From Omnitrophica WOR_2 bacterium RIFCSPHIGHO2_02_FULL_50_17 (GTDB lineage Bacteria > Omnitrophota > Gorgyraeia > Zapsychrales > Zapsychraceae), in NCBI GenBank assembly GCA_001805645.1, contig MHGQ01000049.1:66216-130215 (forward strand): a stretch of DNA of 64,000 nucleotides, written 5' to 3'. The notes beneath the pieces were generated by a model. It was not told where the DNA came from. It did no database searches and was given only the letters and a program-made list of their open reading frames with translations. The translations under genes and the position numbers were made by a program. Shown piece after piece: positions 18,623 through 31,336 of the stretch. Position 1 is the first letter of the stretch. Each line of letters opens with the position of its first letter.

Positions 18623-19765
18623 TTACTTAAACACTTTTTTTATTTTCTCGGCAATCGAACTGGCCTGGGGGTCGACCTTCTCCCCGCTAATCTGAGCAAA
18701 TTTCTCCAATAACTGCCTCTGTTCGGCAGTCAATCTTTCAGGCACCTCCAGCATCACCTTTACATACTGATCACCCGGTACCCCCCCACGCAAACCAGGC
18801 ATGCCCTTGCCCTTCAGGCGAAAGACCTTGCCACTTGGCGTACCTGCCGGGATTTTCATTTTAACGGTATCGTTGAGAGTGGGGACGGACACCTCCGCGC
18901 CCAAGGCCGCCTTGACAAAACTTACCGACAGCTGCATATAGATATCATCCTCATTGCGCTCAAAGAGAGAATGGGACAGAACCCGGATGTACAAATAGAG
19001 ATCCCCGGCGCCGCCGCCGCCAATTTCTCCCTCTCCGGCGATCCTTAGGCGTGTGTTATTGTCCACACCCGGCGGGATAGTCACGTCAATCTTTCGCGTC
19101 ACACGCACGACCCCTTTACCGTGACATTGGGGGCAAAACTCCGTAATAATCTGTCCTGCCCCGCCGCAGGCTGAACATGTTTGCTGCATCCTGAAAAATC
19201 CGCTGGACATCACCACCTGACCGCGGCCGCCGCAAGTGCTGCAGGTCTTAGGTTTCGTTCCTGGCTTGGCCCCCGACCCCTCACACGACGCGCAGTGCTC
19301 ATGACGGGGGATTTTTATCTTTTTGGCAACTCCCGCGAAGGCCTCTTCTAAAGTCACCTCAACCTCATACTGGATATCATGGCCCCGCCGTGGCCGCCGG
19401 CTCCGGCGGCTGGCCCCTCCAAAAATATCAAACCCTGCATCGCCGAAGAACTGGCCGAAGATATCCCCCAATCCTAAATCCTCAAAGATGCCGCTGAAGT
19501 CGGCCCCTCGGAAGATATCCTCTGTCGTATACTGCTGATCGATGCCGGCATGACCGTATTGATCATACATGGACCGCTTCTTGGCGTCGGACAAAACGCC
19601 GTAGGCCTCGGAAATTTCCTTAAATCTCTGTTCCGCCTCGGCCTTTTCCTCTGGGGGGACGCGGTCCGGATGGAACTTCAACGCCAGGGAACGATACGCC
19701 TTCTTGATTTGCTGCGGCGCGGCATCCTTGGGGACGCCCAGTATTTCGTAATAATCTTTCTTCAT
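18623..19765 (-). CDS. dnaJ: Molecular chaperone DnaJ
   Basis: J-domain with HPD (YYEILGV...FHPDR), a G/F region, and four CxxCxGxG zinc-finger repeats. Confidence 0.95.
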   Translation of the reverse strand: MKKDYYEILGVPKDAAPQQIKKAYRSLALKFHPDRVPPEEKAEAEQRFKEISEAYGVLSDAKKRSMYDQYGHAGIDQQYTTEDIFRGADFSGIFEDLGLGDIFGQFFGDAGFDIFGGASRRSRRPRRGHDIQYEVEVTLEEAFAGVAKKIKIPRHEHCASCEGSGAKPGTKPKTCSTCGGRGQVVMSSGFFRMQQTCSACGGAGQIITEFCPQCHGKGVVRVTRKIDVTIPPGVDNNTRLRIAGEGEIGGGGAGDLYLYIRVLSHSLFERNEDDIYMQLSVSFVKAALGAEVSVPTLNDTVKMKIPAGTPSGKVFRLKGKGMPGLRGGVPGDQYVKVMLEVPERLTAEQRQLLEKFAQISGEKVDPQASSIAEKIKKVFK

Positions 19766-19791
19766 GGATTCTGCCGGAGATTAAGACGCAA

Positions 19792-19823
19792 AGAGGCAAG
19801 CGACTTATTTGTCTCTTGCCTCT
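19792..19823 (-). other. Intercistronic hairpin between dnaK and dnaJ
   Basis: agaggcaag (19792-19800) pairs with cttgcctct (19815-19823) around a 14-nt loop. Confidence 0.4.
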
Positions 19824-19887
19824 CTTTTAAAAATAACGGTTTTTACAAAATTCCCCGCTCTGCTTTCTGTTTTTTATCTTTTATTTC

Positions 19888-21828
19888 TTATTTTTTATCT
19901 TTATTGTCGTCTTCCGCTTCGAAATCGGCGTCGATAATATCTTCATTAGAGGCACCCTGGGGACCCTCCTGCTGGGCATGATGTCCATGTGTCTTGTGCT
20001 GCCCCCCCTCAGGACCGCCCCCGCCTTTTGCTCCGGCTGTCTGCTGCGCCGCTGTGGCCTTGTAAACCTCTTCGGCCAATTTATGACTTGCCTTCTGAAG
20101 CGAGTCCATGGCCCCTTTGATCTTTCCCTCATCGCCGGATTTAATCGCTTCTTTCAGATTATTCAGCTCTCTTTCGATATTGGACTTGTCGTCAGCCGAG
20201 ATCTTATCTCCGTAATCGCGGATGGATTTCTCGGTCGCATAAACAATCACATTGGCCTGATTGACCAATTCGACCTTCTCTTTACGCTTCTTATCCTGAT
20301 CGGCATATTGCTCGGCCTCTTTGACCATCTTCTGGATCTCTGCATCCGAGAGCTTGGTCGGGGCGGTAATACGAATCGACTGTTCTTTCCCTGTCCCCTT
20401 GTCCTTTGCTGCAACATGAACGATGCCGTCCGTATCGATATTGAAGGTAACCTCGATTTGCGGGATACCGCGCGGGGCCGGCGGAATCCCCACCAGGTCA
20501 AAACGCCCCAGCTCGACGTTATCATCTGCCATGGGGCGCTCCCCCTGAAGGACGCGGATAGTCACCGCGGGCTGATTATCATCGGCCGTCGAGAAGACCT
20601 GACTCTTGCGCGTAGGAATGGTTGTGTTGCGCTCAATGAGTTTTGTAAAGACGCCCCCCAAGGTCTCGATCCCCAGAGTCAACGGTGTCACGTCCAAAAG
20701 AAGGACTTCTTTGGCCTCTCCCCGGATAATCCCGCTCTGAATGGCCGCCCCCAGGGCCACACATTCCATAGGGTCTATCCCGCCTTCAATTTTACGGCCA
20801 ATCTCTTTCTCGACAAAGGCCTGAACACAAGGCATACGCGTGGGGCCGCCCACGAGAATGACGCGGTCAACCTTGACATCTTCGCCCATCTTAGCCGAGG
20901 CGTCTTTAACGGCCTGACGAATGGGGCCGTGGCAACGGTCAATAAGAGGAGACACCAGGCTTTCCAGCTTGGCGCGATTGATAGTAAGGGTCAGATGTTT
21001 GGGGCCGTTGGAGTCCGCCGTAATAAACGGAAGATTGATATCTGTCGAGACAGTGCTGGAAAGCTCCACCTTCGCCTTCTCCGCGGCCTCGCGCAGGCGC
21101 TGAAAGGCCATTTTATCTTTCTTGAGATCAATCCCCGCGTCCTTCTTAAACTCCTCACAAATGTGATTGATCAAAATGTTATCCATATCCGTTCCGCCGA
21201 GCTCATTGTCTCCGCTGGTGGATATGACCTCAAAGGTGGCGGCCTTGTGTCCCTCATCCCATCCCATCTCAAGGATCGTCACATCGAGGGTCCCGCCGCC
21301 AAAATCAAAAACCATGATCTTCTGTTCCTTGCCGGCCTTGTCCAGTCCATACGCCAGACACGCCGCGGTCGGCTCATTGATGATCCGAAGCACCTTCAAG
21401 CCCGCAATCTCGCCGGCATCTTTGGTGGCCTGCCTTTGATTGTCATTAAAATAAGCGGGGACTGTGATCACGGCTTCTTCGACGGGTTCGCCAAGATATT
21501 TCTCGGCATCCGCCTTGATCTTCTGAAGGATGAAGGAGCTGATCTGCTGCGGGGTGAATTCCTTGCCGCCGACATGATATTTGTGGTCCGTCCCCATCTT
21601 CCTCTTGGCGGCATAGATCGTTCCTTCGGAATTCATCGGTGCCTGACGGCGGGCCGGCTCTCCCACCAATCGTTGCCCGTCTTTGGTGAATGCCACAAAA
21701 GAAGGGAATGCCTTGCCAGAGGAAACCCCAGCCCCTTCCGCCGAAGGGATAATCGTCGGACGCCCCCCCTCCATGACCGCCGCCGCGGAATTGGATGTTC
21801 CCAAATCAATGCCTATTGCTTTTGCCAT
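19888..21828 (-). CDS. dnaK: Molecular chaperone DnaK (Hsp70)
   Basis: [18 protein letters not shown] and other Hsp70 signatures. 646 aa with an acidic C-terminus. Confidence 0.95.
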
Positions 21829-21923
21829 TTTGTCCTCCTTGCTTCATGTCATAGGTCACTCCCGACGCGCCATCTTTGATGTCGGTCGGGACTCCGACCG
21901 AGGCTTGAGCCGAGCGTCGGAGA

Positions 21924-21955
21924 AGGTCACCAGGACACATGTGTCTTGGTGACCT
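21924..21955. repeat. 32-bp near-perfect palindrome directly abutting the grpE stop codon
   Basis: aggtcaccaggacacatgtgtcttggtgacct has one mismatch against its reverse complement. Confidence 0.6.
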
Positions 21956-22549
21956 CTAATTCTTTTTTTTCTCTTTATTCGTAGCTACTTTCACCTTACT
22001 CGTCCGAATCACCCGGTCGCCTAAGGTGTATCCCCTTTGAAACTCCTCGAGAATGGTTCCTTCTTCAACCCCCTCGGATTCTTCCTGCAGAAGAATCTCA
22101 TGACAATGCGGATCAAACATCTGCCCCTTGACCTCGATCGGCCTGACGCTGTTTTTCTTGAGCATCTCATGAATCTGCGCCATGATCATTTCAACGCCTT
22201 TGAGGAAAGCCGCGTAATCCTCGTGTTTGGCCTGGGCGGCTTCCACCGACCGTTCCAGATTATCCAGGATATTGAGAAACTCCGCAATCAGCCCTTCATT
22301 GGCGTATTTGACGAATTCCTGTTTGTCGCGTTCCATGCGCTTACGCGCATTTTCAAACTCGGCGTACAAACGAACATATTTATCCTTGTATTGAGCGGCT
22401 TCTTCGATCAATTTCTTATGCTCGGACTCCGTGAGCGTGATCGTCCTGCCCTCTGAGGATTTTCCCGCCGCTTCTGCCGCCTTTTCGTCCGCCAGCGTTT
22501 CCTTGCCGGTGATCTTGGCGGCACCCTCTGTTTTATTCTTGTTTTCCAT
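21956..22549 (-). CDS. grpE: Nucleotide exchange factor GrpE
   Basis: Coiled-coil N-terminus and a GrpE C-terminal domain (FDPHCHEIL...). Operon context with dnaK. Confidence 0.9.
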   Translation of the reverse strand: MENKNKTEGAAKITGKETLADEKAAEAAGKSSEGRTITLTESEHKKLIEEAAQYKDKYVRLYAEFENARKRMERDKQEFVKYANEGLIAEFLNILDNLERSVEAAQAKHEDYAAFLKGVEMIMAQIHEMLKKNSVRPIEVKGQMFDPHCHEILLQEESEGVEEGTILEEFQRGYTLGDRVIRTSKVKVATNKEKKKN

Positions 22550-22641
22550 TGAGATAAAAAGACAAACCCGCGGCGACGCTGCCCCGGGACGATCCTAAAA
22601 CGCCTCTCTATGCCCTGCTAGGAGGCACTATCTATCCCCTA

Positions 22642-23379
22642 TCACAAGATATCTTCCATCAAACCGGAAAAATAATCGACGACGGAAACCACCTTCTTGT
22701 AATCCATGCGTGTCGGCCCCAAAACCGCTATCCGGCCGCTCACGCCCTGTCTGGACCTGTAACGGGAGACCACCAAAGAGCACGTATCTATATCCGCACA
22801 CTCCATCTCATCACCGATAAAAATTTCGATCCGCTGGACCAGCTCTTTATTAATAATCTCCAAGAGCCGTTCTTTCTCATCCAGGGCGGCCAGAATAGCC
22901 CTTATCTTATCGGTGTCCTGATATTCCGGATACCCCACGATAAAACTTGTCCCCTGGCAGAAAACCTTATTGTCCAAGCCATCAACAGAAACGAAGGTTG
23001 TATAATGGGTCATCTGAGATAAAACGCGTGAGGTCTTCTCAAGAAGGACATCCAGCTCGGCGTACTCACGTTCATACTCGGCCCGGATACGATTTTTTTC
23101 CTCTTCAAGAAGATGGATTTCATCCATGAGATAGTCCACGTAATAGCGGTATCCATTCTGCGTCGGCACACGCCCGGAGGATGTATGCGGATGAGTGAGA
23201 TATCCCTCCTCTTCCAATTCGGCCAGGACATGACGGATCGTTGCCGGACTTAAGTCAAGACCGTATTCTTTGGCGATAAATGCGGAACTCACCGGTGATA
23301 CGGTTCGGATGTATTGGTCCACCGTAATGGTAAGAATCTTCTCTTTTCTCTCTTTAAGATCTGTTTTTCGCGGTGTCAT
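22642..23379 (-). CDS. hrcA: Heat-inducible transcription repressor HrcA (short variant, 245 aa)
   Basis: N-terminal wHTH (ILTITVDQYIRTVSPVSSAFIAKEY...LSPATIRHVLAELEEEGYL) and a CIRCE immediately upstream. Confidence 0.85.
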   Translation of the reverse strand: MTPRKTDLKERKEKILTITVDQYIRTVSPVSSAFIAKEYGLDLSPATIRHVLAELEEEGYLTHPHTSSGRVPTQNGYRYYVDYLMDEIHLLEEEKNRIRAEYEREYAELDVLLEKTSRVLSQMTHYTTFVSVDGLDNKVFCQGTSFIVGYPEYQDTDKIRAILAALDEKERLLEIINKELVQRIEIFIGDEMECADIDTCSLVVSRYRSRQGVSGRIAVLGPTRMDYKKVVSVVDYFSGLMEDIL

Positions 23380-23411
23380 AATGATAACCCTATTCGAGCA
23401 ATCAGGTCAGA

Positions 23412-23438
23412 TTAGCACTCTCTATAATAGAATGCTAA
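23412..23438. promoter_or_regulatory. CIRCE operator (HrcA binding site)
   Basis: TTAGCACTC-N9-GAATGCTAA has one mismatch to the consensus TTAGCACTC-N9-GAGTGCTAA. It lies just downstream of the hrcA promoter. Confidence 0.85.
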
Positions 23439-23444
23439 GGCGTC

Positions 23445-23472
23445 ATTGTAACAAAAACATCATTGTTGTCAA
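23445..23472 (-). promoter_or_regulatory. Probable sigma-70 promoter of the hrcA-grpE-dnaK-dnaJ operon
   Basis: On the minus strand, -35 TTGACA (23472-23467), a 16-nt spacer, and -10 TACAAT (23450-23445). CIRCE begins 6 nt downstream. Confidence 0.6.
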
Positions 23473-23531
23473 TAAAAAATTTCATTTCTAAATTCATTTC
23501 CACAAAACAAAACCTCATTACCCCCAAGATG

Positions 23532-24227
23532 TTAGGACCGCTCATCCTGCAGCAGCTTCACAATCCTTAAAAATTTTTCCAAATAATTTTCCATAGAAGA
23601 TATATGACGCATGAGGGCAGCCCGACTGGGGTTCTTCTGCATGGAAGAATAAAACTCCAATATAACCTCACCATCGACAATCCGAAGGGGCATAGAGGGA
23701 CAACCGCGGGCATCGATGTTCTTCAGTTGTGAAAAAATAGAGACGACCTTATCATTCTCCAAAAGGGTGTTGGCACGCTGGACATCGTTCGTATGGATAT
23801 TAAGACCTTTGAGCTTAGGAGGCACATGGACACGCGTCTCCTGGGGCGTCGGCTCATCAGGGATTTTAGAGGCGATGATGACGTCTGAGCGAACAAAAGT
23901 CGTTGATCGCGGCTCTTCCGTAAAACTCAACGTAAAATGGCCAGCTGTTTTGGTCTTTAAATAGGCCTTATAGACCCCCTCCTGTCGGAAGAGGGGGCGA
24001 GCAAACCCCCGGTCAGACACATCCTCATACATAAAGGATTGTCCTTCAAATATGAAACGAATGCCATAAGCATCCGGCTCTCCCTCAATAGCCCGAAGGT
24101 CCCCCTCTACAAATTTTGCCAAAGAGCGCAAAAATTGTTCCCGCGTTTGTTTCTTAGGGGAAGAACTCCCGCTTAATAAAATAATCCCGGCCAATAAGAC
24201 AATAACAACAAGGATAATCCAAATCAT
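23532..24227 (-). CDS. Hypothetical membrane-anchored protein
   Basis: N-terminal TM (IWIILVVIVLLAGIILL). No recognisable motifs. Length is 231 aa. Confidence 0.45.
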   Translation of the reverse strand: MIWIILVVIVLLAGIILLSGSSSPKKQTREQFLRSLAKFVEGDLRAIEGEPDAYGIRFIFEGQSFMYEDVSDRGFARPLFRQEGVYKAYLKTKTAGHFTLSFTEEPRSTTFVRSDVIIASKIPDEPTPQETRVHVPPKLKGLNIHTNDVQRANTLLENDKVVSIFSQLKNIDARGCPSMPLRIVDGEVILEFYSSMQKNPSRAALMRHISSMENYLEKFLRIVKLLQDERS

Positions 24228-24231
24228 TTTA

Positions 24232-25518
24232 TTACGTTATGGTGTTACGAATATCGTATTTGTAGAATTTTCCAGCAATCCGTGTCGGCACCATCGCGCG
24301 GATATGGATGGTCTTAGCGTAATATTTAATCGAATACACCTCACCCTCCTCATGGGCAAGGCTGACCAAATCCATACGGTTTATCGGCACCTCGACCTCA
24401 ACCTCCGTGACCAGACACGAGAGCATCCGGCTCATCTCGTCCAAAAGAAGAGAGATATTTTCCCCCGTCTTTGCCGAAATACAGACCCCATGCTCCTGGT
24501 TATCCTTAAATTGTTTAAGCCAATGCCTGTCTTCCAATTTATCGATTTTATTGAAAACCAGGATCGTCGGCTTGTCGTAGGCCTGCAGATCCTTGAGGAC
24601 ATCCACCACCGACTCCTGAAGCTGACGAAAACGGGGATGACTGACATCAACCACATGCAGCAATAAATCAGCCTCCTTGACCTCTTCGAGGGTGGCCTTA
24701 AACGCCTCAATCAGGCGGTGGGGCAGTTCATGCATAAATCCCACGGTGTCAGAGAGAATAATCCTTTGATGATTCGGCAGAGTCAACTGCCGGGAGAGCG
24801 AATCCAGGGTCGTAAATAAACCGTCGTAGACGGGCTGATCGGCCTGAGTAAGGGCATTCAACAGCGTTGATTTCCCCACGTTGGTATATCCGACGAGAGA
24901 AACGGCCGGGACTCCTTTGTCTCTGCGGTGTTTGCGTTTGAGGGCACGGCTGGCCGCCACCTCATCGAGATCCCGCCGCAGATTAACGATGCGCTGGTCG
25001 ATACGGCGCCGGTCTATCTCCAGCTTTGTTTCCCCCGGGCCTGAGGTTCCGATGCCGCCGCCAAGCTGGGATAATTGAATCCCTTTCCCCACCAGACGCG
25101 GCATCAGATACTCCAACTGGGCTAATTCCACCTGCATTTTCCCCTCTTGGCTGGTGGCATGCTTGGCAAAAATATCAAGAATAATCTGCGTGCGATCAAT
25201 TGTCTTGGCTTTGATGGTCTCCTCCAGATTCCTCTGCTGGCTTCCCTTCAGATCTTGGCTAAAAATGACCGTATCAACCCCCTTCGCCCCAACGACTTGC
25301 GCGATATCTCTGACCCGCCCTTCCCCGATAAGATACCCGGCAGTAGGCTTGTCCACATGACAAATAATACGCTCAACCACCTCGCCGCCGCAGCCGGCGA
25401 TAAGCTCCTCCATTTCCTCAAGGACATCCTGGGCGCTCCAGCGCTCACGCTCCTTTTTAAAATCAACAATAACCAGGAGGACTTTCTCTTTTTCTCTTTT
25501 ATTCTCGTAAGACATCAT
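24232..25518 (-). CDS. hflX: GTPase HflX
   Basis: HflX N-terminal domain plus a G domain with VGYTNVGKSTLLNALT and DTVGF. Confidence 0.9.
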   Translation of the reverse strand: MMSYENKREKEKVLLVIVDFKKERERWSAQDVLEEMEELIAGCGGEVVERIICHVDKPTAGYLIGEGRVRDIAQVVGAKGVDTVIFSQDLKGSQQRNLEETIKAKTIDRTQIILDIFAKHATSQEGKMQVELAQLEYLMPRLVGKGIQLSQLGGGIGTSGPGETKLEIDRRRIDQRIVNLRRDLDEVAASRALKRKHRRDKGVPAVSLVGYTNVGKSTLLNALTQADQPVYDGLFTTLDSLSRQLTLPNHQRIILSDTVGFMHELPHRLIEAFKATLEEVKEADLLLHVVDVSHPRFRQLQESVVDVLKDLQAYDKPTILVFNKIDKLEDRHWLKQFKDNQEHGVCISAKTGENISLLLDEMSRMLSCLVTEVEVEVPINRMDLVSLAHEEGEVYSIKYYAKTIHIRAMVPTRIAGKFYKYDIRNTIT

Positions 25519-26446
25519 CCCTCCCGATAACGGCTATGATTCTCTCCGCCACACCTGCCACCGTATCATTCTTCTCAATCATAATCCATTGCAATCTCTT
25601 TTCTCTGCGAAACCACGTAAGCTGGCGTTTGGCAAACCGGCGGGTATTCAGCTTAATCAAATGCCTTGCCTGATTTTCATCATATTCCCCGTTTAAATAA
25701 CCCCGAATTTCCCGAATGCCGATAATCCGTTCAGCCGTCAGGCTGAGCGTTAAATGTCCCAGGCCGTTAATCTCCTGCACAATCCCGTCACAAAACATCT
25801 TATCCACCCGCTCATTGATTCTTTCATGCAATCTTTGCCTCTCCATGCTCAAGGCCACGATCTTTATATCATATTTCCCCCAAATCCCCTCACGGTTTTT
25901 CTGGAGACTGGAAATAGGCTGGCGGCGCAAAATCCACACCTCCAAGGCACGGATGACGCGCCTTAGATCCCGGGGATGGATTTTATCCGCGGTCTTAGGA
26001 TCCGCCTTTTTGAGCCTATCATAAAGGTAATGAGGACCGTGCATCTGCGCCTCGGCTTTAAGCCCCTCCCGCAAAAGGCTGTTTTTAGGACCGTCCGGAA
26101 AAATCCCGTCTAGAAGAATCTGCATATAAAGACCGCTTCCTCCGACAACAATAGGGATATGACGGCGGGCATGGACCGCCTGAATGGCCTCCATGGCCAA
26201 AGCGGCAAACCGCGCCGCATCAAATTCATCCCGCACAGAGACAATATTAATCAGATGATGAGGGACAGCGCGCAGCATTTCATCCGATGGTTTATTCGTG
26301 GCAATATTGATTTCTTTGTAAACCTGCATGGAGTCGCAGGAGACGATTTCCCCTTGCATGCGCTGGGCTAAAAGGCAGGCCGTCTCGGATTTACCGACCG
26401 CTGTCGGCCCGACGATAAAGATAATTTTCTGAGAATTTACACCCAT
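25499..26446 (-). CDS. miaA: tRNA dimethylallyltransferase
   Basis: IVGPTAVGKSETA P-loop and IPTP family sequence. Confidence 0.9.
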   Translation of the reverse strand: MGVNSQKIIFIVGPTAVGKSETACLLAQRMQGEIVSCDSMQVYKEINIATNKPSDEMLRAVPHHLINIVSVRDEFDAARFAALAMEAIQAVHARRHIPIVVGGSGLYMQILLDGIFPDGPKNSLLREGLKAEAQMHGPHYLYDRLKKADPKTADKIHPRDLRRVIRALEVWILRRQPISSLQKNREGIWGKYDIKIVALSMERQRLHERINERVDKMFCDGIVQEINGLGHLTLSLTAERIIGIREIRGYLNGEYDENQARHLIKLNTRRFAKRQLTWFRREKRLQWIMIEKNDTVAGVAERIIAVIGRDDVLRE

Positions 26447-26453
26447 TATGAAA

Positions 26454-27227
26454 CTACGGGTAAATCTGGGTAGGATACCCTAATTGGGCTAACTTAATCT
26501 TCAGTTTTTGCGCCTCTTTCAAAATGGCCAGCTGACCAACCCGCACACGATAGAACCTGCGATCGCGGGAATCCATGGTTTCCACAATATAAGCGTACTC
26601 TCCTTTTCGTTTTAACTCGGCCGCCAAGGCCTCTGCCTTCTCGCGCTCCGAGAAAGAGCCCACCTGCACAGCAAAGTATTGTTTCTCTTCGAGCAGTTGT
26701 CTGGCTGTAAAAACCTCCAAACTGTTAGGGAAAGTGCGGATAATTTTCTCCAGACAATCGCGGGCATCTTCCCATTGGGCAAGTTTTAAATTAACCCTCG
26801 CTAGTTTTAAATACACTAAGCTCATCGCTTCCGGCCGCGGAGTCTGCCGTAGAAACTCTTGGGCCACGCCATAAGCCTCCTTATATTTTTCCTCCAGATA
26901 ATAGGTATCAAGCAATCCCAGAGACACCTTATCCCGCAACTGCGGGTCAATCCCGTTTTTTCCCGCCCCTTGGAATGAGGCCCGGGCTTCCTTGTAGTTC
27001 CCTAATTTCAATTGGCTTAATCCCAAATAATAGCGGACTTTCTGCGCAACGGCCTTCTGAGGCTTATGGGAAAGTCCCTGTTGGGCGAATTCTTGGGCTT
27101 GGGCATAATCCTCTTTGAGGATCGCCGTTTCAATGTCGGCTAACGCCGCCCAGGCCGCATTCCCGTGAAAGAAAAAAATACAAACGCCTACTGCAGGAAA
27201 AATCAAACTTAGTCCGCGTCTGTGCAT
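26454..27227 (-). CDS. Periplasmic TPR-repeat protein with C-terminal SPOR domain
   Basis: Signal peptide, TPR-like repeats, and a C-terminal SPOR-like domain (FAVQVGSFSEREKAEALAAELKRKGEYAYIVE...FYRVRVGQL). Confidence 0.7.
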   Translation of the reverse strand: MHRRGLSLIFPAVGVCIFFFHGNAAWAALADIETAILKEDYAQAQEFAQQGLSHKPQKAVAQKVRYYLGLSQLKLGNYKEARASFQGAGKNGIDPQLRDKVSLGLLDTYYLEEKYKEAYGVAQEFLRQTPRPEAMSLVYLKLARVNLKLAQWEDARDCLEKIIRTFPNSLEVFTARQLLEEKQYFAVQVGSFSEREKAEALAAELKRKGEYAYIVETMDSRDRRFYRVRVGQLAILKEAQKLKIKLAQLGYPTQIYP

Positions 27228-27380: not shown

Positions 27381-27433
27381 ACATTGCTTATTGCGTTTGT
27401 ATTAGATCAAAACTTTCTCTGACGCAATGAAAT

Positions 27434-27470
27434 AGCAAGGCCTTAATCCAGAAAGGACTAAGGCCTTGCT
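27434..27470 (-). terminator. Hairpin just downstream of the repeat-protein gene; likely a terminator
   Basis: Perfect 12-bp arms agcaaggcctta and taaggccttgct around a 13-nt loop. On the minus RNA it is followed by AUUUCAUU. Confidence 0.5.
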
Positions 27471-27490
27471 ACGTCATCCCCGCAATAATG

Positions 27491-29065
27491 TCATCTTCTT
27501 CTTTTCATGGCTCCTGAGGCAGACCCACCCTTTTGCGGATTTCTCTTAGCGGCGCCATAAGCTTTCTTTGCAGCTCCAGGATGCCTCTCGGCGGCCCGAT
27601 AAACTTTCTTCGCCGCACCAGGATGTTCCTGGGCCGCGCGATAAGCCTTTTTGGCAGCGGCGGGATGATTCTCCGCCGCTCGGTAGGCTTTCTTTGCCGC
27701 TCCAGGATGCCTCTCGGCGGCCCGGTAAACTTTCTTCGCCGCATCAGGATGTTTCTGGGCATCCTTATAGAGTTGTTTTGCCGCACCAGGATGTTCCTGG
27801 GCCGCACGGTAAACCTTTCTGGCAGCATCGGGATGCTGGGCGGCATCTTTGAGCACCTTAGGGGGTAGAGCCGGCTGAATGCGGTCACGGACATCTTCTC
27901 TGCGATCGCGCACATCCTCCTGGCGATCAATAACATTTTCCCGTCGATCCCGAACATCTTCTCTGCGATCACGCACATCCTCACGCCGGTCACGAACATC
28001 TTCTCTTTGATCCCAAACGTCCTCCCTCGCGTCACGGATATCTTCGAGTTTATCCTTACGGCCGCCTTCATGCTGACTGTCCCAGACATCTTCCCGTGCG
28101 TCCAGAATATCTTCACGGCGGTCGCGGACATCTTCGCGTTTGTCCCACACATCCTCCCGATGGTCGCGGACGTCTTCGCGCCGGTCATGGACATCTTCCC
28201 GCCGGTCGCGATAATCTTCCCTGCGGTCACGCACATCCTCAACACGATCCTTAAAATGCGGGCCAGTCCCTGGGCCTCCAACAGGCCCCGGCGGATTCAC
28301 TCCAGGATGCTCCTCTAAAAACTTGCGATGTTTGTACGCCTCTTGCGCCACCTCCGGATGCTGATTAAGCCACTCCCGTTTTTCATAAAGTTTTTTCGCC
28401 ACATCAGGATGGTTCTCCAAAAACTCCCGATTTTTGAAAACCTCTTTAGCGACACCAGGATGTTGACCCAGCCACTCGCGATTTCCGTAAACTTCTTGAG
28501 CCACGCCGGGATGCTCCTTAAGCCATTGACGGTTGGCGATTAGCTTTTGGGCAATGCCGGGATGTTCCTCAAGCCATTTGTGGTCTTTATAAAGATACGG
28601 AAGCTCTCCCTTATGTTCAATAAGCTTCTGCTTCTCAGCCTGTTTGTAGGCCTTGGCCTCGTCCAAATCCAGGGCGCCGTCGCCGTCGGCATCAAACATG
28701 ACAGCCCTGTCCCAGCGCTCATCCCCAAAGGCCTGGGCCTCTCGCTGTGTGCGGTTATTCGTCCAATCCTCTTCTGTTAAAAGCCCGTCATCGCCGGCCA
28801 GTGTGTCAAATTTACTCCTGTCATAATAGTCATCATACTTCTCTATGATCCCTTCCCCGGTTGCGCCGGCGTGTCTTTCCTTGAATTCCTCCAGCCTTTC
28901 CTGCCTGGTTTCGATAACCTGCGCCGCGCCGGGATGCTTCTCCTCAAATGCCTCGATGCGTTCGGTACGCTTTTCGATGGCGGTGGAGATTCCGCCGCCT
29001 TCCTGCGCCCCCGCGACCGGCACCATCCAGATGCCGAACGCTAAAACAAGGAATAATCTCTTCAT
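27491..29065 (-). CDS. Secreted tandem-repeat protein (EF-hand, WLxxHPGVA 17-mers, REDVRDR heptads, HPGAAKKAYRAAE 13-mers)
   Basis: The true start is probably MKRLFLVLAFGIWMVPVAGA, a signal peptide, preceded by the RBS GGAGGG. The track ORF begins 23 codons earlier. It carries a canonical EF-hand loop (DADGDGALDLDE), about 6 repeats of 17 aa, about 20 repeats of 7 aa, and about 8 repeats of 13 aa. The repeats are also visible at DNA level. Confidence 0.7.
   Translation of the reverse strand: MKRLFLVLAFGIWMVPVAGAQEGGGISTAIEKRTERIEAFEEKHPGAAQVIETRQERLEEFKERHAGATGEGIIEKYDDYYDRSKFDTLAGDDGLLTEEDWTNNRTQREAQAFGDERWDRAVMFDADGDGALDLDEAKAYKQAEKQKLIEHKGELPYLYKDHKWLEEHPGIAQKLIANRQWLKEHPGVAQEVYGNREWLGQHPGVAKEVFKNREFLENHPDVAKKLYEKREWLNQHPEVAQEAYKHRKFLEEHPGVNPPGPVGGPGTGPHFKDRVEDVRDRREDYRDRREDVHDRREDVRDHREDVWDKREDVRDRREDILDAREDVWDSQHEGGRKDKLEDIRDAREDVWDQREDVRDRREDVRDRREDVRDRRENVIDRQEDVRDRREDVRDRIQPALPPKVLKDAAQHPDAARKVYRAAQEHPGAAKQLYKDAQKHPDAAKKVYRAAERHPGAAKKAYRAAENHPAAAKKAYRAAQEHPGAAKKVYRAAERHPGAAKKAYGAAKRNPQKGGSASGAMKRRR
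27540..27850. repeat. Intragenic tandem DNA repeat, about 39-bp period (encodes the HPGAAKKAYRAAE 13-mers)
   Basis: Periodic recurrence of ccaggatg...cggcggcccgataaactttcttcgccgc. Confidence 0.7.
27873..28255. repeat. Intragenic tandem DNA repeat, 21-bp period (encodes the EDVRDRR heptads)
   Basis: Recurrent gcggtcacggacatcttctct-like units. Confidence 0.7.
28300..28610. repeat. Intragenic tandem DNA repeat, 51-bp period (encodes the WLxxHPGVAxEVYxNRE 17-mers)
   Basis: CCAGGATG / CCGGGATG recurs every 51 nt. Confidence 0.7.
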
Positions 29066-29163
29066 GGTTTTACCCTCCCTTTCCAATCTTGCCGCATGTT
29101 TTGTACGCTTGGTCATATCTATCCCATTAAACACAGTGTTTGTCCAAAAGTTTCGCAGAAATT

Positions 29164-29937
29164 TTACCGACTGCCTCGTTTGCGGTAAATTGGCCCCGGG
29201 CCGGGGCCGCCCGATTTCTGACGCACGTCAGAAATCTCCCCGCCACCCGCCGAAGGCGAGGCTCGCCCTTGACGGCCCGCCGCGGGACGCGGCCTGTTTT
29301 CTTCCAAAGGACGCCGCGCCTGTACAGGAGGCTCTTTAAGAAACCGGCCTCCCCGACGTTCATTTGTTCTTTGCCTAAACTCTTCCCTTAATTCCTGCTT
29401 TCGTTCCGGCGCAAGATTCTGCCATTTTTCCCTTCGTTCCCTTAGCTGCTGTCTTTGTTCAGGGGGCAATCCCCTGAAACGCTTATACCGCTCCCGGATC
29501 AACTGCTTTTTCTCAGGCGGAAGCTGCTGCCATCTTTTATACTTTTCAACAATCTCCTGACGCCTGTTCGGCGGCAAATTCCTAATCCTTCCCCAATTCT
29601 GACGTACTTTCTTTTTTAATTCGGGAGGCAGCTGTTGATACCGCTGAAATCTCTGCTTGATTTCAGCTTTCTGGGCCGGGTCCAGATTTCTCCATCGCTC
29701 TAATCGCTTCCTTAACTTCTGTTTCTGTTCAGGGGGTAGTTGTTGCCACCGGCGGCGGGCCTGCGGAGAAACTTCTCCGCCCTCACCAACACCTTCCTGA
29801 ACGGCTTTTTGTTGTTGTGACGGCATGGGTGTTGTCTGCGCTTGGTCTTGCGCCGTATAAGCGATGCCGCAAGCCAACACAGCAATCAGAACAAAAGAAA
29901 ATATATACAATCGGCGTCGTTTATTGTTCATTTCCAC
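29164..29937 (-). CDS. DUF3106-like periplasmic repeat protein (W-x2-L-P-P-E-x-K/R repeats)
   Basis: Signal anchor, then about 8 repeats such as RWQQLPPEQKQKLRKRLERWRNLDPAQK. From memory this matches the DUF3106 pattern. The tail is Arg/Gly-rich. Confidence 0.6.
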   Translation of the reverse strand: MEMNNKRRRLYIFSFVLIAVLACGIAYTAQDQAQTTPMPSQQQKAVQEGVGEGGEVSPQARRRWQQLPPEQKQKLRKRLERWRNLDPAQKAEIKQRFQRYQQLPPELKKKVRQNWGRIRNLPPNRRQEIVEKYKRWQQLPPEKKQLIRERYKRFRGLPPEQRQQLRERREKWQNLAPERKQELREEFRQRTNERRGGRFLKEPPVQARRPLEENRPRPAAGRQGRASPSAGGGEISDVRQKSGGPGPGPIYRKRGSR

Positions 29938-30151
29938 TCACCTCCCATTCATCTAAGACCTCATAGTCATCCAAAAAAACCGCATTTTCCTCCAAGAACT
30001 CCAGACTCTCTAGAAATTCCAGATTCGTGATAACCTCCGCGTCCTCTTCGGAAATTCCCTCCGCTTCTTGAGCGGAGTCAGTAACCACGTCCGCCGCAAG
30101 GGGCGCTGTCCATATCAAGACCAAAATACCGGCCATGAACAACGTTCTCAT
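29921..30151 (-). CDS. Small secreted acidic protein (76 aa)
   Basis: A signal peptide (MRTLFMAGILVLIWTAPLAA) followed by the acidic LEFLESLEFLEE...DDYEVLDEWEV. The motifs echo the C-terminal tail of the upstream anti-sigma factor. Confidence 0.5.
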   Translation of the reverse strand: MRTLFMAGILVLIWTAPLAADVVTDSAQEAEGISEEDAEVITNLEFLESLEFLEENAVFLDDYEVLDEWEVSGNEQ

Positions 30152-30729
30152 ATGAGCTCCAAACTATCCGCGTTCTCGATCACTTCCAGATCCTCAAAAA
30201 AATCTATGTCCTGAATAATGTCAAAATTTTCGGCCAGCTCGATGTCTTCGGCCGCCCCCAGAGAAGGATGGTCGAAGACCATCTCCAGTTCCTCCTGGTT
30301 CAAGTTGGCGGCCAGATCCTGCGCCTCCCGCATCTGCCAGTAATTGCGCAAAGAAAAAATCCCGGTAAAAACCAGGACGCAAACCGCGGCGAAGACAGGC
30401 GCTAAGCGTTTCCTGCGCAAGCCCTCAAGTGATTCCTGGATCCCCCGCGCGACCCTTTCCCTCCATGGCCGCTGAAGGGAAACCCTAGTCCAAAAGCGGG
30501 AGACATAGCCGGGGGACGGCTCAATGTTTTGCCACTCTCCCAGCATCTTCCACGAGCGTTCCAGGGCATGGAGTTCCTTCTGGCAGGCCGCGCAGGACGC
30601 CAGATGCTCTTTAACGGCCATGGTCTCTTGCGGGTCCGATTCACCGTCTAAATAAACAGGGATGAGTTTTTTTATCTCAACACAGCGCATTTTTGTCCCT
30701 CCCACATTTATAACACATCGCCTATTCAA
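30148..30729 (-). CDS. Anti-sigma factor, zf-HC2 type, single TM with an acidic periplasmic tail
   Basis: The HLASCAACQ motif (H-x3-C-x2-C), the TM segment LAPVFAAVCVLVFTGIFSL, and a C-terminal acidic region. The probable start is the internal MRCVEIKK. Confidence 0.7.
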   Translation of the reverse strand: MNRRCVINVGGTKMRCVEIKKLIPVYLDGESDPQETMAVKEHLASCAACQKELHALERSWKMLGEWQNIEPSPGYVSRFWTRVSLQRPWRERVARGIQESLEGLRRKRLAPVFAAVCVLVFTGIFSLRNYWQMREAQDLAANLNQEELEMVFDHPSLGAAEDIELAENFDIIQDIDFFEDLEVIENADSLELI

Positions 30730-31336
30730 AAGTTTCGGCGGGCGTTAATTTATTTTTAAGGTTCTCTTTGGCCCGGCTCAGAAGCGATTTGACCGCCTTA
30801 ACCGATAGGCGCATGGTCTGAGCAATCTCCTCATAGGAAAACTGTTCGTACCGGCGCAAAATCACGGCCATACGCTGGTTCTGCGGCAAAGAGTCAATGG
30901 CCTCCCGCACCGCCGCCGCGGCCTCCTCGCGCAATATCTGTTCATCCGCCCGCGGGGCCGCTGTATCCTCTATTTGTCTCTCCATCGGGCCGTCATCGGA
31001 TACAAAAGGATCATCGAGGGAAACAGCTATTTTTTTATGATGCCTCAGCTCATTAAGGCTGATATTCTTTGCGATGGTATAAATCCATGTCTGAAACTTG
31101 GATTTTGGCCGATACCGCGACGCCGCATGGTAGACCTTCAGAAAAACCTCCTGGGTTAAATCCTCAGCGATTTCCCGGCGGCCGACAAACCGAAAGATAA
31201 AATTGAAAAGACGGGGATAATATTTGTGCATGAGGGTCTCAAAGGAACGATTATTGCCCCCTTGCACCTCAAGCATTAAACGGACATCAGGGTCATCCAG
31301 GAAGGGATTGGGTTTATCCACAAAGAGCATGATCAA
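30722..31336 (-). CDS. ECF (sigma-24 / RpoE-type) RNA polymerase sigma factor
   Basis: Sigma-70 region 2 (LTQEVFLKVY...) and a region 4 HTH (FSYEEIAQTMRLSVKAVKSLLSRA). Confidence 0.85.
   Translation of the reverse strand: MIMLFVDKPNPFLDDPDVRLMLEVQGGNNRSFETLMHKYYPRLFNFIFRFVGRREIAEDLTQEVFLKVYHAASRYRPKSKFQTWIYTIAKNISLNELRHHKKIAVSLDDPFVSDDGPMERQIEDTAAPRADEQILREEAAAAVREAIDSLPQNQRMAVILRRYEQFSYEEIAQTMRLSVKAVKSLLSRAKENLKNKLTPAETFE

What the first reader, a model, noticed from the sequence alone, without database searches (positions are those of the whole stretch)
27491..29065. Secreted protein made of three DNA-level tandem repeat arrays (51-, 21- and 39-bp periods) plus an EF-hand
The domain order is: signal peptide, an EF-hand loop DADGDGALDLDE, about 6 copies of a 17-aa unit WLxxHPGVAxEVYxNRE, a Pro/Gly linker, about 20 copies of the heptad EDVRDRR (extreme charge alternation), then about 8 copies of a 13-aa unit HPGAAKKAYRAAE. 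The repeats are near-identical at nucleotide level (arrays at 28300-28610, 27873-28255 and 27540-27850). This implies recent expansion and likely length polymorphism by slippage or recombination. The periodicity also generates long spurious ORFs in other frames and on the other strand. Repeated HPG(V/A)A units could be metal-binding or surface-adhesion motifs.
Basis: seen in the sequence. Interest (0 to 1): 0.75.

Follow-up and report, generated by a model that had tools for sequence, protein, structure and literature searches.

The report
Exported helical repeat protein, ECF-controlled
This is a real gene for an exported, all-helical protein built from four old repeat modules, one of them a charged hairpin with two length-matched arms. 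It is the last gene of a five-gene stress-sigma-factor cassette found in several phyla, its function is untested, and its repeats are neither near-identical nor recent.

Summary
The gene is real: minus strand, 27491-29065, 524 aa. It has a strong ribosome-binding site, a strong terminator, and dN/dS of about 0.09 against orthologs. The periods are 51, 21 and 42 bp (14 aa, not 13 aa/39 bp). Units are only about 60-70% identical at DNA level, and the longest exact repeat is 26 nt. So these are old, selected repeats, not recent slippage products.

New points:
- The 16 heptads form an 8+8 helical hairpin around a conserved HEGG turn. Arm lengths match across 67 relatives (66% equal against 22% expected).
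- The 17-aa units are predicted to form a HEAT/PUF-like alpha-solenoid, and the 14-aa units look like shortened 17-aa units.
- The gene closes a cassette: ECF sigma, zinc-finger anti-sigma, small acidic protein, DUF3106 repeat protein, then the target. This cassette recurs in Omnitrophota, Deltaproteobacteria and Myxococcales.
- The target carries the same ECF-type promoter motif as the anti-sigma gene.

Best reading: an ECF-regulon protein of the cell envelope, probably a calcium-responsive scaffold or modulator. The function is inferred only. Metal or haem binding is neither supported nor excluded. The window most likely comes from an Omnitrophota genome.

The parts
29127..29154 (-). ECF-type promoter-like motif GAAACTTTT-N13-GTGTTTAA upstream of the target gene
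   Evidence: The block is conserved in five orthologous intergenic regions. The pattern has 2 hits in the 64-kb window against 0.03 expected. It is present upstream of the ortholog in L001, L005, L007, L008 and L009.
29073..29080 (-). Shine-Dalgarno AGGGAGGG, 7 nt before the ATG at 29065
   Evidence: Read from the sequence and conserved in orthologs. The upstream in-frame ATG/GTG starts are not conserved in frame (single-nt gaps in L007/L008).
27491..29065 (-). Coding sequence of the repeat protein (524 aa plus stop)
   Evidence: ORF list. Orthologs at 79-83% identity. dN/dS is 0.088 against L007 and 0.10 against L001.
29006..29065 (-). Signal peptide, aa 1-20 (MKRLFLVLAFGIWMVPVAGA)
   Evidence: Read from the sequence: a KR n-region, a hydrophobic core and an AGA-Q cleavage-like site. 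A crude signal test is positive in 134 of 169 relatives. No signal-peptide predictor was available.
28838..28963 (-). Two 21-aa direct repeats (aa 35-55 and 56-76: ERIEAFEEKHPGAAQVIETRQ / ERLEEFKERHAGATGEGIIEK)
   Evidence: Read from the sequence. One copy (63 nt) is absent in L001.
28658..28798 (-). EF-hand pair region: degenerate first loop (aa 90-100, AGDDGLLTEED) and canonical second loop (aa 125-136, DADGDGALDLDE)
   Evidence: Loop pattern match. Pfam EF-hand is sub-threshold in the target (E 0.07). Homologs carry two canonical loops with significant Pfam and PDB matches.
28298..28576 (-). Array of 17-aa units, W-L-x-x-H-P-x-V-A-K-x-L-Y-x-N-R-x (5 full + 1 partial, aa 164-256); predicted alpha-solenoid
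28253..28297 (-). Pro/Gly linker (aa 257-271, NPPGPVGGPGTGPHF)
   Evidence: Read from the sequence. pLDDT is below 50.
28073..28240 (-). Hairpin arm 1: 8 heptads E-D-V-R-D-R-R (aa 276-331)
   Evidence: AF2 helix 271-332 with pLDDT 85-97.
28046..28072 (-). Hairpin turn HEGGRKDKL (aa 332-340), a conserved H[DE]GG[RK]xD[KR][LI] motif
   Evidence: The turn motif is found in 53 of 67 complete hairpins. AF2 places the break at aa 333-336.
27878..28045 (-). Hairpin arm 2: 8 heptads (aa 341-396)
   Evidence: AF2 helix 337-395 with pLDDT 79-85. The Val/Ile of each heptad mirrors its partner across the turn (residue numbers sum to 670 for all 8 rungs).
27542..27835 (-). Array of seven 14-aa units H-P-G-A-A-K-K-A-Y-R-A-A-E-x (aa 411-508), net charge +17 over aa 397-508
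   Evidence: One 12-13-residue helix per unit, pLDDT 50-66. A 126-bp higher-order period is present.
27494..27541 (-). Gly-containing basic C-terminal tail (NPQKGGSASGAMKRRR, +5)
   Evidence: A basic C-terminus is seen in 128 of 169 relatives.
27432..27472 (-). Intrinsic-terminator-like stem-loop followed by UAUUUCAUU
   Evidence: RNA fold gives -41.2 kcal/mol, z = -8.2, and 0 of 200 shuffles fold as well.
30722..31336 (-). ECF sigma factor gene (cassette gene 1; true start uncertain)
   Evidence: Pfam Sigma70_r2 (9e-20), r4_2 (2e-17) and Sigma70_ECF.
30711..30736 (-). Second copy of the promoter-like motif (GAAACTTTTGAATAGGCGATGTGTTA) at the sigma/anti-sigma junction
   Evidence: Conserved in L001, L002, L007, L008 and L009.
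30148..30729 (-). Anti-sigma factor: zf-HC2 N-terminal domain, one hydrophobic segment, and a 65-aa acidic tail (net -18). The likely real start is the ATG near 30690.
   Evidence: Pfam zf-HC2 1.6e-10, NCBIfam anti-sigma, charge, start seen in the alignment.
29921..30151 (-). Small exported acidic protein (76 aa; mature part net -20)
   Evidence: Conserved position in L001, L007-L009, L002, L005, L011 and L016.
29164..29937 (-). DUF3106 protein made of seven 18-aa units, W-x-x-L-P-P-E-Q-K-x-x-L-R-x-R-F-x-R (mature part net +33)
   Evidence: Pfam DUF3106 2e-28, unit analysis, charge.

Best explanation
The gene encodes an exported, elongated, all-alpha modular protein. It is an output, and possibly also a modulator, of the adjacent ECF sigma / anti-sigma envelope-stress cassette.

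Shown by the analyses:
- The gene has its own promoter-like motif, GAAACTTTT-N13-GTGTTTAA. The same motif precedes the anti-sigma gene.
- It has a strong ribosome-binding site and a strong terminator.
- The protein runs in this order: signal peptide, a 21-aa duplicated helix, an EF-hand pair with one intact Ca2+ loop, a 5.5-unit alpha-solenoid of 17-aa units, a Pro/Gly hinge, an antiparallel helical hairpin of 8+8 EDVRDRR heptads (about 84 A per arm), a basic array of seven 14-aa helices, and a basic tail.
- In the hairpin, the single Val of each heptad faces its mirror partner and the rest is Asp/Glu-Arg.

Inferred:
- The ECF sigma transcribes the gene.
- The protein is exported to the periplasm.
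- Ca2+ occupancy of the EF-hand and the ionic state of the hairpin tune its shape.
- The solenoid and the basic C-terminal part (+22) bind partners. The best candidates are the very acidic periplasmic tail of the anti-sigma factor (-18), the small acidic cassette protein (-20), or anionic envelope polymers.

On this reading it would work like the periplasmic accessory proteins of other envelope-stress pathways, and like the Caulobacter periplasmic EF-hand protein CaBP, which forms a loop with the ECF sigma SigV.
For: Real coding gene: dN/dS is 0.04-0.10 in every module that can be measured. The SD and start are conserved. A terminator follows the stop.

Cassette linkage:
- Sigma / anti-sigma / small protein / DUF3106 / target occur in this order in L001, L007, L008, L009, L002 and L005.
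- The same genes occur in a different order in a deltaproteobacterial MAG (L011), two Myxococcales MAGs (L016, L017) and L020/L021.

Promoter: the motif is conserved upstream of the target in 6 loci and at the sigma/anti-sigma junction in 6 loci. There are 2 hits in the window against 0.03 expected.

Hairpin:
- AF2 predicts helices 271-332 and 337-395 with pLDDT 79-97.
- Arm lengths are equal in 44 of 67 hairpins and within one heptad in 88% (r = 0.75). Permutation gives a mean of 22% equal and a maximum of 40% in 20,000 trials.
- The window has 8+8 and its ortholog L007/L019 has 7+7, so both arms changed together.
- The Val rungs mirror each other across the turn.

EF-hand: the target has one canonical loop. 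Homologs have two loops with significant Pfam and PDB matches.

Charge complementarity within the cassette is shown.

Precedent: a periplasmic EF-hand protein is coupled to an adjacent ECF sigma in Caulobacter (PMC13171946).
Against: - No experiment or expression data exists for this gene.
- The sigma-dependence of the motif is inferred from position and conservation only, and no matching motif was found cleanly upstream of the sigma gene itself.
- About half of the more distant 17-aa-repeat proteins examined are not next to an ECF sigma (L010, L012, L015, L018, L022-L024).
- Hairpin-only relatives sit after RND efflux operons instead. The modules are therefore not tied to one pathway.
- The EF-hand region has low model confidence (pLDDT 40-54) and is below Pfam's threshold in the target.
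- The closest ortholog set includes a version with only 3 heptads and no turn (P0001/L001). The hairpin may therefore be dispensable, or that contig may be mis-assembled.
- No binding partner was tested. The anti-sigma tail and the small acidic protein show no alignable similarity to each other.
Confidence: 0.45

Rival explanations
1. It is a periplasmic metal- or haem-binding buffer or carrier. On this reading the one His per 14- or 17-aa unit (15 HP motifs, 22 His in all) ligates metal ions or haem, as the first reader suggested for metals.
For: - The unit motif [W/F/Y]-L-x-x-H-P is the same local motif as Y-L-D-S-H-P in the mycobacterial haemophore Rv0203 (PDB 3MAY).
- In Rv0203, Tyr59 and His63 (motif positions 1 and 5) and His89 (position 1 of a second H-F-E-A-N-P-K-V-A motif) are the haem-binding residues (PMC9846915).
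- Pfam MHB gives weak whole-sequence hits on these arrays: target E 0.016, P0041 8e-6, and the L012 protein 5e-7 with 30.2 bits against a cutoff of 27.4.
- Hairpin-only relatives follow RND efflux operons.
Against: - No single MHB domain passes the threshold. hhalign aligns only 12 columns at 5% probability.
- The Tyr position is W or F in all six units of the target, and Tyr in only 13% of 183 units. His is Asn in 9%.
- The same motif occurs as a plain helix start in RecA's C-terminal domain and in kinesin-light-chain TPRs.
- No HxH, CxxC or Met-rich motifs are present, and no metal or haem transport genes lie in the target loci.
Confidence: 0.12
2. It is a purely structural or protective envelope protein with no signalling role. 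It could be a highly charged helical spacer or a hydrophilin-like protectant, made under ECF-controlled stress to stabilise or space envelope layers.
For: - 71% of the hairpin residues are charged.
- The modelled shape is elongated: two 56-residue helices plus two solenoid arrays.
- Hairpin length varies from 3 to 9 heptads among relatives, like a ruler.
- The basic tail is conserved in 76% of relatives.
- ECF-type promoter.
Against: - The maximum hairpin length of about 84 A, and the absence of any lipid anchor or peptidoglycan-binding domain, give no obvious attachment points.
- The EF-hand and the tight linkage with an anti-sigma factor that has an oppositely charged tail suggest a regulatory contact.
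- This rival is not excluded by any test done here.
Confidence: 0.25
3. It is a contingency-type locus whose near-identical DNA repeats expand and contract by slippage or recombination, giving strain-level length polymorphism.
For: Copy numbers differ between relatives in three of the arrays. One 126-bp block looks younger, with a unit pair at 95% identity. Two related contigs end inside the gene (L008, L009).
Against: - Mean nt identity between units is 52-71%, and codon identity at identical residues is about 48%.
- The longest exact repeat is 26 nt and no 31-mer is repeated.
- All the differences seen are between genomes only 77% identical in DNA.
- Two independent assemblies give a 100% identical 7+7 gene.
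- Arm lengths stay matched, which points to selection on structure rather than free slippage.
Confidence: 0.03
4. It is an assembly artefact or a non-coding periodic sequence.
For: Repeats can break short-read assemblies. L008 and L009 end inside the gene, and L008 has about 3x coverage according to its contig name.
Against: - No repeated 31-mers.
- The frame is intact through all the arrays.
- dN/dS is about 0.09.
- Start, SD and promoter block are conserved.
- Full-length orthologs occur in independent assemblies.
- 443 related proteins are found in a 1.84-billion-protein library.
Confidence: 0.01

Closest known systems
Caulobacter vibrioides CaBP-SigV circuit (periplasmic EF-hand protein next to an ECF sigma; PMC13171946)
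   Same: Both are Sec-exported EF-hand proteins encoded beside an ECF sigma gene. In L011 the target homolog lies directly upstream of the sigma gene, as cabp does with sigV. [quoted passage not shown]
   Different: CaBP is a 133-aa protein made only of three EF-hands. The target keeps one intact loop and adds three repeat modules. The cassette here also has a zf-HC2 anti-sigma, a small acidic protein and a DUF3106 protein. Apart from the EF-hand there is no sequence relationship, and nothing here is tested experimentally.
HEAT / PUF / ARM-type alpha-solenoid repeat proteins
Kinesin-light-chain-type TPRs (DHPDVA helix start) and the RecA C-terminal domain (AWLKDNPETAKEI)
   Same: They share the local helix - His/Asn-Pro - helix motif found in each 17-aa and 14-aa unit.
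   Different: This is only a 9-15-residue motif match. E-values for single copies are 0.2-1.5. There is no 34-aa TPR consensus and no significant Pfam TPR hit (TPR_14 E 0.087).
Mycobacterial haemophore Rv0203 (Pfam MHB, PF16525; PDB 3MAY)
   Same: Both are exported all-alpha proteins. The Y-L-D-S-H-P motif carrying the haem ligands Tyr59 and His63 matches positions 1-6 of the 17-aa unit. Pfam hits are weak.
Charged single alpha-helix (ER/K) domains and antiparallel coiled-coil hairpins
   Different: Here there are two arms of matched length around a conserved Gly-Gly turn, and one conserved Val per heptad facing its mirror partner. That makes it a hairpin, not a single helix. The core is far more polar than in classical coiled coils.
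DUF3106 (PF11304), the neighbouring cassette protein
   Same: Both are exported helical proteins built from about 17-18-aa units that start with Trp and have Pro at position 6. They are co-located and probably co-regulated.
   Different: Profile-profile comparison finds no relationship. The net charge is opposite or different (+33 against -4 overall).

Membership tests
EF-hand (Pfam PF00036/PF13202/PF13499; PROSITE PS00018) | 12-residue loop with D at position 1, D/N/S at 3, D/N/S at 5, G at 6, a hydrophobic residue at 8 and E/D at 12 | tested here: met
   DADGDGALDLDE at aa 125-136 matches the 12-residue part of the pattern.
EF-hand (Pfam PF00036/PF13202/PF13499; PROSITE PS00018) | Full PROSITE pattern including the hydrophobic residue at position 13, and the Pfam gathering score | tested here: not met
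   Position 13 is Ala, so the full pattern gives no match. EF-hand_1 scores 13.1 bits against a cutoff of 25.4. The homolog in L012 passes with 37.2 bits.
EF-hand (Pfam PF00036/PF13202/PF13499; PROSITE PS00018) | Paired EF-hands | tested here: inconclusive
   The first loop is degenerate in the target (AGD-DGLLTEED, one residue shorter). It aligns to a canonical loop in P0004. The model is of low confidence there.
Haemophore MHB (PF16525 / TIGR04529, Rv0203 family) | Pfam/NCBIfam score above the cutoff | tested here: not met
   15.8 bits against 27.4, and 17.1 against 32 in NCBIfam.
Haemophore MHB (PF16525 / TIGR04529, Rv0203 family) | Haem-ligand Tyr (Tyr59) with His at +4 | tested here: not met
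   His is conserved, but the Tyr position is W, W, W, F, W, F in the target. Across 183 units it is Y 13%, W 63% and F 23%.
Haemophore MHB (PF16525 / TIGR04529, Rv0203 family) | Haem binding | not testable with these tools
   Needs hemin titration of recombinant protein.
TPR / Sel1-like repeats | 34-36-aa helix-turn-helix unit matching a Pfam TPR/SLR profile | tested here: not met
   Only TPR_14 at E 0.087, on the 14-aa array. The profile search against the PDB matches only the short DHPDVA motif in KLC TPRs.
HEAT/ARM/PUF alpha-solenoids | Stacked helical-repeat fold | tested here: inconclusive
Charged single alpha-helix (SAH, ER/K motif) | One isolated, monomeric, extended helix with no partner helix | tested here: not met
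   AF2 predicts two helices joined by a turn at aa 333-336. Arm lengths co-vary across 67 relatives.
CpxP / Spy / ZraP periplasmic stress proteins | LTXXQ motifs / Pfam PF07813 or PF13801 | tested here: not met
   No such Pfam hit for the target at E <= 1. Only the DUF3106 neighbour has a faint Metal_resist hit (E 0.072).
ECF sigma regulon member | Promoter with the sigma's own -35/-10 motif, shared with the sigma operon | tested here: met
   The same GAAACTTT-N13-14-(T)GTGTT motif lies upstream of the target and of the anti-sigma gene. It is conserved across loci and occurs only twice in 64 kb. This is sequence evidence only.
ECF sigma regulon member | Sigma-dependent transcription | not testable with these tools
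   Needs a reporter assay, in vitro transcription or transcriptomics.
DUF3106 (PF11304) | Match to the DUF3106 profile or to its 18-aa unit | tested here: not met
   No Pfam hit for the target. hhalign of the two repeat profiles gives 0.1% probability.
Slippage-prone contingency repeats | Long tracts of identical or near-identical tandem units | tested here: not met
   The longest exact repeat is 26 nt and unit identity is 52-71%.

The most novel reading that the evidence does not exclude
The cassette may be a previously undescribed physical-chemistry sensor of the cell envelope. On this reading the polyampholyte hairpin, together with the EF-hand, opens or closes with Ca2+, ionic strength or pH. 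The hairpin has length-matched arms and a core of one Val per heptad flanked by Asp/Glu-Arg pairs. Opening would expose the solenoid and the strongly basic C-terminal array. These would capture or release the strongly acidic periplasmic tail of the zf-HC2 anti-sigma factor, in competition with the small acidic protein and the +33 DUF3106 protein, and so set ECF sigma activity. A related, equally unexcluded twist is that the [aromatic]-L-x-x-H-P units are multi-site haem or metal ligands, as in the Rv0203 haemophore.
Probability: 0.1. Interest if true: 0.75.

Novelty: new variant of a known kind. Interest (0 to 1): 0.45.

Why it matters
ECF sigma factors are the largest group of bacterial signalling sigma factors, and for most groups the signal and the accessory proteins are unknown. 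This work defines a five-gene cassette found in at least three phyla: ECF sigma, zf-HC2 anti-sigma with an acidic tail, a small acidic protein, a DUF3106 repeat protein, and a solenoid/hairpin repeat protein. Its exported members are extreme in charge and built from repeats that no curated family describes.

The heptad hairpin, with co-varying arm lengths of 3-9 heptads, is a natural example of a length-tunable, almost fully charged helical hairpin. That makes it of interest for protein design and as a possible ionic sensor.

For genome annotation, the practical lesson is that these arrays are old, selected protein repeats. They are not unstable DNA repeats, so they should not be flagged as assembly problems or phase-variable loci.

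Tried and rejected
1. Recent DNA-level repeats: rejected by unit-by-unit nt identity, codon usage and k-mer analysis.
2. A 39-bp/13-aa period: rejected. The period is 42 bp/14 aa.
3. Curated families:
   - Pfam and NCBIfam give nothing significant for the target.
   - A PDB sequence search gives only a weak EF-hand hit.
   - Foldseek against the PDB gives no hit below E 0.5.
   - afdb50 was unavailable.
4. Homology between the 17-aa repeat and the neighbour's DUF3106 18-aa repeat: rejected by hhalign.
5. Similarity between the anti-sigma acidic tail and the small acidic protein: BLASTP finds no alignment, so the resemblance is compositional only.
6. Haemophore link:
   - The motif mapping onto Rv0203 was verified.
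   - Profile support is weak.
   - An attempt to collect the MHB family for a proper profile-profile test returned only 3 proteins, a dead end.
7. Strain-level copy-number comparison: the metagenome scan returned one locus, identical to L007, so no population data were obtained.
8. Literature: no paper contains the heptad sequence, and DUF3106 appears only in unrelated papers.
9. Paralogs in the window: none. Rfam and tRNA scans of the window found nothing.
10. A clean copy of the promoter motif upstream of the sigma gene itself was not found. There is only a loose match at 31662 inside the preceding gene.
Full report
**1. What is in the sequence**

The finding sits on a 524-aa ORF on the minus strand, 27491-29065. 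The mechanical ORF extends to a GTG at 29134. Three things point to the ATG at 29065 as the start:
- A strong Shine-Dalgarno (AGGGAGGG) lies 7 nt before it.
- MKRLF/MNRLI is conserved at this point in orthologs.
- Single-base gaps upstream in two orthologs put the upstream ATG out of frame.

A very stable stem-loop followed by a U-rich stretch lies just after the stop codon (-41.2 kcal/mol, z = -8.2).

Against two orthologs, dN/dS is 0.09-0.10 overall and 0.04 in the 17-aa array. The frame is therefore translated and under purifying selection.

**2. Check of the observation**

The protein-level repeats are real and far beyond chance. Lag identity is 52% at 17 aa, 62% at 7 aa and 64-71% at 14/28/42 aa. 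The best lag in shuffled sequence never exceeds 25-35%.

The layout is as follows:

| Residues (aa) | Element |
|---|---|
| 1-20 | Signal-peptide-like N-terminus |
| 35-76 | Two 21-aa direct repeats |
| 90-100 | Degenerate EF loop |
| 125-136 | Canonical EF loop DADGDGALDLDE |
| 164-256 | Five full and one partial 17-aa units |
| 257-271 | Pro/Gly linker |
| 276-331 | Eight heptads (arm 1) |
| 332-340 | Nine-residue turn HEGGRKDKL |
| 341-396 | Eight heptads (arm 2) |
| 411-508 | Seven 14-aa units |
| 509-524 | Basic tail |

Three details of the finding are wrong:
- The C-terminal unit is 14 aa/42 bp, not 13 aa/39 bp.
- There are 16 heptads, not about 20.
- The arrays are not near-identical in DNA.

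On the last point, mean pairwise nucleotide identity is 63% for the 17-aa units and 71% for the 14-aa units. The heptad blocks as cut give about 52-59%. Identical residues share a codon only about 48% of the time. TRF reports 67-81% matches and does not detect the 51-bp array at all.

The longest exact repeat in the gene is 26 nt and no 31-mer is repeated. Short-read assembly is therefore unambiguous, and there is little substrate for slippage. Only one 126-bp (three-unit) block in the 14-aa array looks younger, with one unit pair at 95% identity.

**3. Relatives and length variation**

The family is small. In 1.84 billion representative proteins, only 443 reach E <= 1e-3 and 12 reach 1e-30. 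Hits fall into two groups: those matching the EF + 17-aa part, and those matching the heptad part.

The closest genomes are Candidatus Omnitrophota MAGs.

| Ortholog | Identity to target | Heptads | 14-aa units | 21-aa repeat copies |
|---|---|---|---|---|
| Window | - | 8+8 | 7 | 2 |
| L007 | 79% | 7+7 | 6 | 2 |
| P0001/L001 | 83% | 3, no turn | 6 | 1 |

An independent JGI assembly (L019) is 100% identical to L007 over the gene.

Copy number does differ, but between genomes whose DNA is only 77% identical. No population-level data could be obtained. Two related contigs end inside the gene. One of them has about 3x coverage according to its contig name, so this says little.

**4. The heptads are a length-matched hairpin**

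In the target and in most relatives the heptad run is split by a conserved turn. The turn is either H[DE]GG[RK]xD[KR][LI] (9 aa) or HNPPPGTEAYRRDKL (15 aa).

Among 67 complete hairpins from proteins clustered at 50% identity:
- The two arms have the same number of heptads in 66% of cases and differ by at most one in 88% (r = 0.75).
- Arm lengths range from 3 to 9 heptads.
- Permuting the arm partners gives 22% equal on average, and never more than 40% in 20,000 trials.
- Relatedness between sequences inflates this somewhat.

The 8+8 against 7+7 difference between close orthologs is a direct example of both arms changing together.

AlphaFold2 predicts helices 271-332 and 337-395 with pLDDT 79-97. 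The single hydrophobic residue of each heptad (Val, Ile or Tyr at position 3) mirrors its partner across the turn at all eight rungs. The remaining positions are invariant Glu1 and Asp5, near-invariant Asp2, and mostly Arg at positions 4, 6 and 7.

Each arm is about 84 A long if helical. This is a hairpin with an unusually polar interface, not a single charged helix.

**5. The HP units form a solenoid**

The consensus of 183 units is W-L-x-x-H-P-x-V-A-K-x-L-Y-x-N-R-x. His is at 91% and Asn at 9% at position 5.

AF2 models the array confidently: pLDDT 83-87 in the full-length model, and 78.9 with pTM 0.64 for the array alone. Each unit forms a 6-residue helix, then His, then a 9-residue helix starting at Pro.

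A profile of three units finds only short motif matches in the PDB. These are RecA's C-terminal AWLKDNPETAKEI and the DHPDVA helix starts of kinesin-light-chain TPRs. This suggests that His-Pro is a helix-start motif.

In more distant homologs the 17-aa array grades directly into HPxAAKKAYK-type units at the C-terminus (L010, L012). The 14-aa unit therefore looks like a 17-aa unit that lost the W-L turn. In the target lineage, the hairpin has been inserted between the two arrays.

The modules occur separately elsewhere:

| Module combination | Proteins |
|---|---|
| Hairpin-only | 91 |
| EF + 17-aa | 18 |
| EF + hairpin | 13 |

The four-module combination is seen only in this lineage.

**6. 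Genomic context**

Upstream on the same strand lie four genes:
- an ECF sigma factor (30722-31336);
- a zf-HC2 anti-sigma factor with one hydrophobic segment and a 65-aa tail of net charge -18 (30148-30729);
- a 76-aa exported protein whose mature part has net charge -20 (29921-30151);
- a DUF3106 protein made of seven 18-aa units, net +33 (29164-29937).

The same five genes occur in the same order in L001, L007, L008, L009, L002 and (partly, at a contig end) L005. The flanking genes differ in L002.

They occur in a different order in a deltaproteobacterial MAG (L011, target first). They are spread over 5 kb in two Myxococcales MAGs (L016, L017). They also occur in L020/L021.

About half of the more distant 17-aa-repeat proteins are not next to an ECF sigma. 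Hairpin-only proteins in two contigs follow a MarR-OEP-MFP-RND operon.

**7. Promoter**

The 98-nt spacer before the target contains a block conserved better than the rest of the spacer: GCGAAACTTTT-N13-GTGTTTAA. This has the shape of an ECF promoter, with an AAC-containing -35 element and a spacing of about 17.

A pattern built from it hits the 64-kb window twice, against 0.03 expected. One hit is upstream of the target. The other is at the sigma/anti-sigma junction, where it is also conserved in five other loci, including the distant L002.

It is present upstream of the target's ortholog in L001, L005, L007, L008 and L009. I therefore infer that the anti-sigma operon and the target are driven by the same sigma factor, most simply the one in the cassette. 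This is sequence inference only.

**8. How it most likely works**

Shown:
- The gene is real and has its own conserved promoter-like motif and terminator.
- The protein is a chain of helical modules, including a length-matched hairpin and a solenoid.
- It is genetically linked across phyla to an ECF sigma / anti-sigma / DUF3106 set.
- The exported proteins of the cassette have strongly complementary charges.

Inferred:
- The protein is exported to the periplasm. It has a Sec-type signal and no lipobox.
- It binds Ca2+ at one EF loop.
- It uses the solenoid and the basic C-terminal part (+22) to bind a partner. Candidates are the acidic anti-sigma tail, the small acidic protein, or anionic envelope polymers.
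- It therefore acts as an output and perhaps a modulator of this envelope-stress pathway.

A precedent exists in Caulobacter. The periplasmic EF-hand protein CaBP and the adjacent ECF sigma SigV regulate each other in response to Ca2+ and pH (PMC13171946).

I put 0.45 on this package. The anatomy and the cassette and promoter linkage are well supported by the sequence analyses above. Confidence in the specific regulatory role is low.

**9. Rivals**

Metal or haem binding is the main alternative.
- For it: the unit motif equals the Y-L-D-S-H-P segment of the haemophore Rv0203. That segment carries the haem-binding residues Tyr59 and His63, and His89 starts a second, similar motif.
- For it: Pfam MHB gives weak hits.
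- Against it: Tyr is not conserved, no single domain passes the threshold, hhalign support is negligible, and the predicted fold is a solenoid.

A purely structural or protective role cannot be excluded. Slippage-driven polymorphism and assembly artefact are rejected by the data in sections 2 and 3.

**10. Comparison with known families, and novelty**

The target fails the membership tests for MHB, TPR, SAH, CpxP/Spy and DUF3106. It meets the EF-hand loop test only partly. No curated family or paper describes the 17-aa unit, the 14-aa unit or the EDVRDRR hairpin.

The kind of system is familiar: exported helical accessory proteins in an ECF sigma cassette. The modules and their combination are new, so I rate it a new variant of a known kind, with moderate interest. 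The most interesting open possibility is that the charged hairpin and EF-hand form an ionic sensor feeding the anti-sigma factor.

Noticed in passing
window 29164-29937 (-): The DUF3106 neighbour is itself a clean tandem-repeat protein. It has seven 18-aa units, W-x-x-L-P-P-E-Q-K-x-x-L-R-x-R-F-x-R, and its mature part has net charge +33 (pI 11.5). The periodic structure of DUF3106 does not seem to be described in the papers searched.
   Followed up: partly
window 29921-30151 (-) and 30148-30345 (-): The small exported protein (mature net -20) and the periplasmic tail of the anti-sigma factor (net -18) are both very acidic and have similar D/E-hydrophobic patterns (e.g. NLEFLESLEFLEE and DIDFFEDLEVIEN). 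BLASTP finds no alignment, so the resemblance is compositional. The small protein could be a decoy for the tail.
   Followed up: partly
window 30711-30736 (-): A second copy of the ECF-like promoter motif lies inside the last codons of the sigma gene, just before the anti-sigma gene, and is conserved in five other loci. This would place the feedback promoter in front of the anti-sigma gene rather than the sigma gene. No clean copy was found upstream of the sigma gene, which overlaps the preceding Cys/Met PLP-enzyme gene.
   Followed up: partly
L003 5546-7146 and L004 5641-7053: Hairpin-only relatives (P0013, P0021) sit directly after a MarR - outer-membrane factor - membrane-fusion - RND pump operon plus a 96-aa P-II-like protein (Pfam P-II E 1.7e-4). 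This is a second conserved envelope context for the heptad hairpin module.
   Followed up: partly
L001 5012-6274 (P0001): The 83%-identical ortholog has only three heptads and no turn, so the hairpin is essentially deleted. The contig has no Ns in the gene. Whether this is a natural variant or a collapsed assembly could not be decided.
   Followed up: partly
window 18623-27227 (-): The genes downstream of the cassette are a SPOR/TPR protein, miaA, hflX, an hrcA-like gene and dnaK. The SPOR/TPR-miaA-hflX order is conserved in L005 and SPOR/TPR-miaA in L007, which helps identify positional orthologs.
   Followed up: no
window 1-64000: GC skew is negative in every 1-kb bin. Nearly all the ORFs inspected between 18 and 40 kb are on the minus strand. 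No tRNA or Rfam family was detected anywhere in the window.
   Followed up: no
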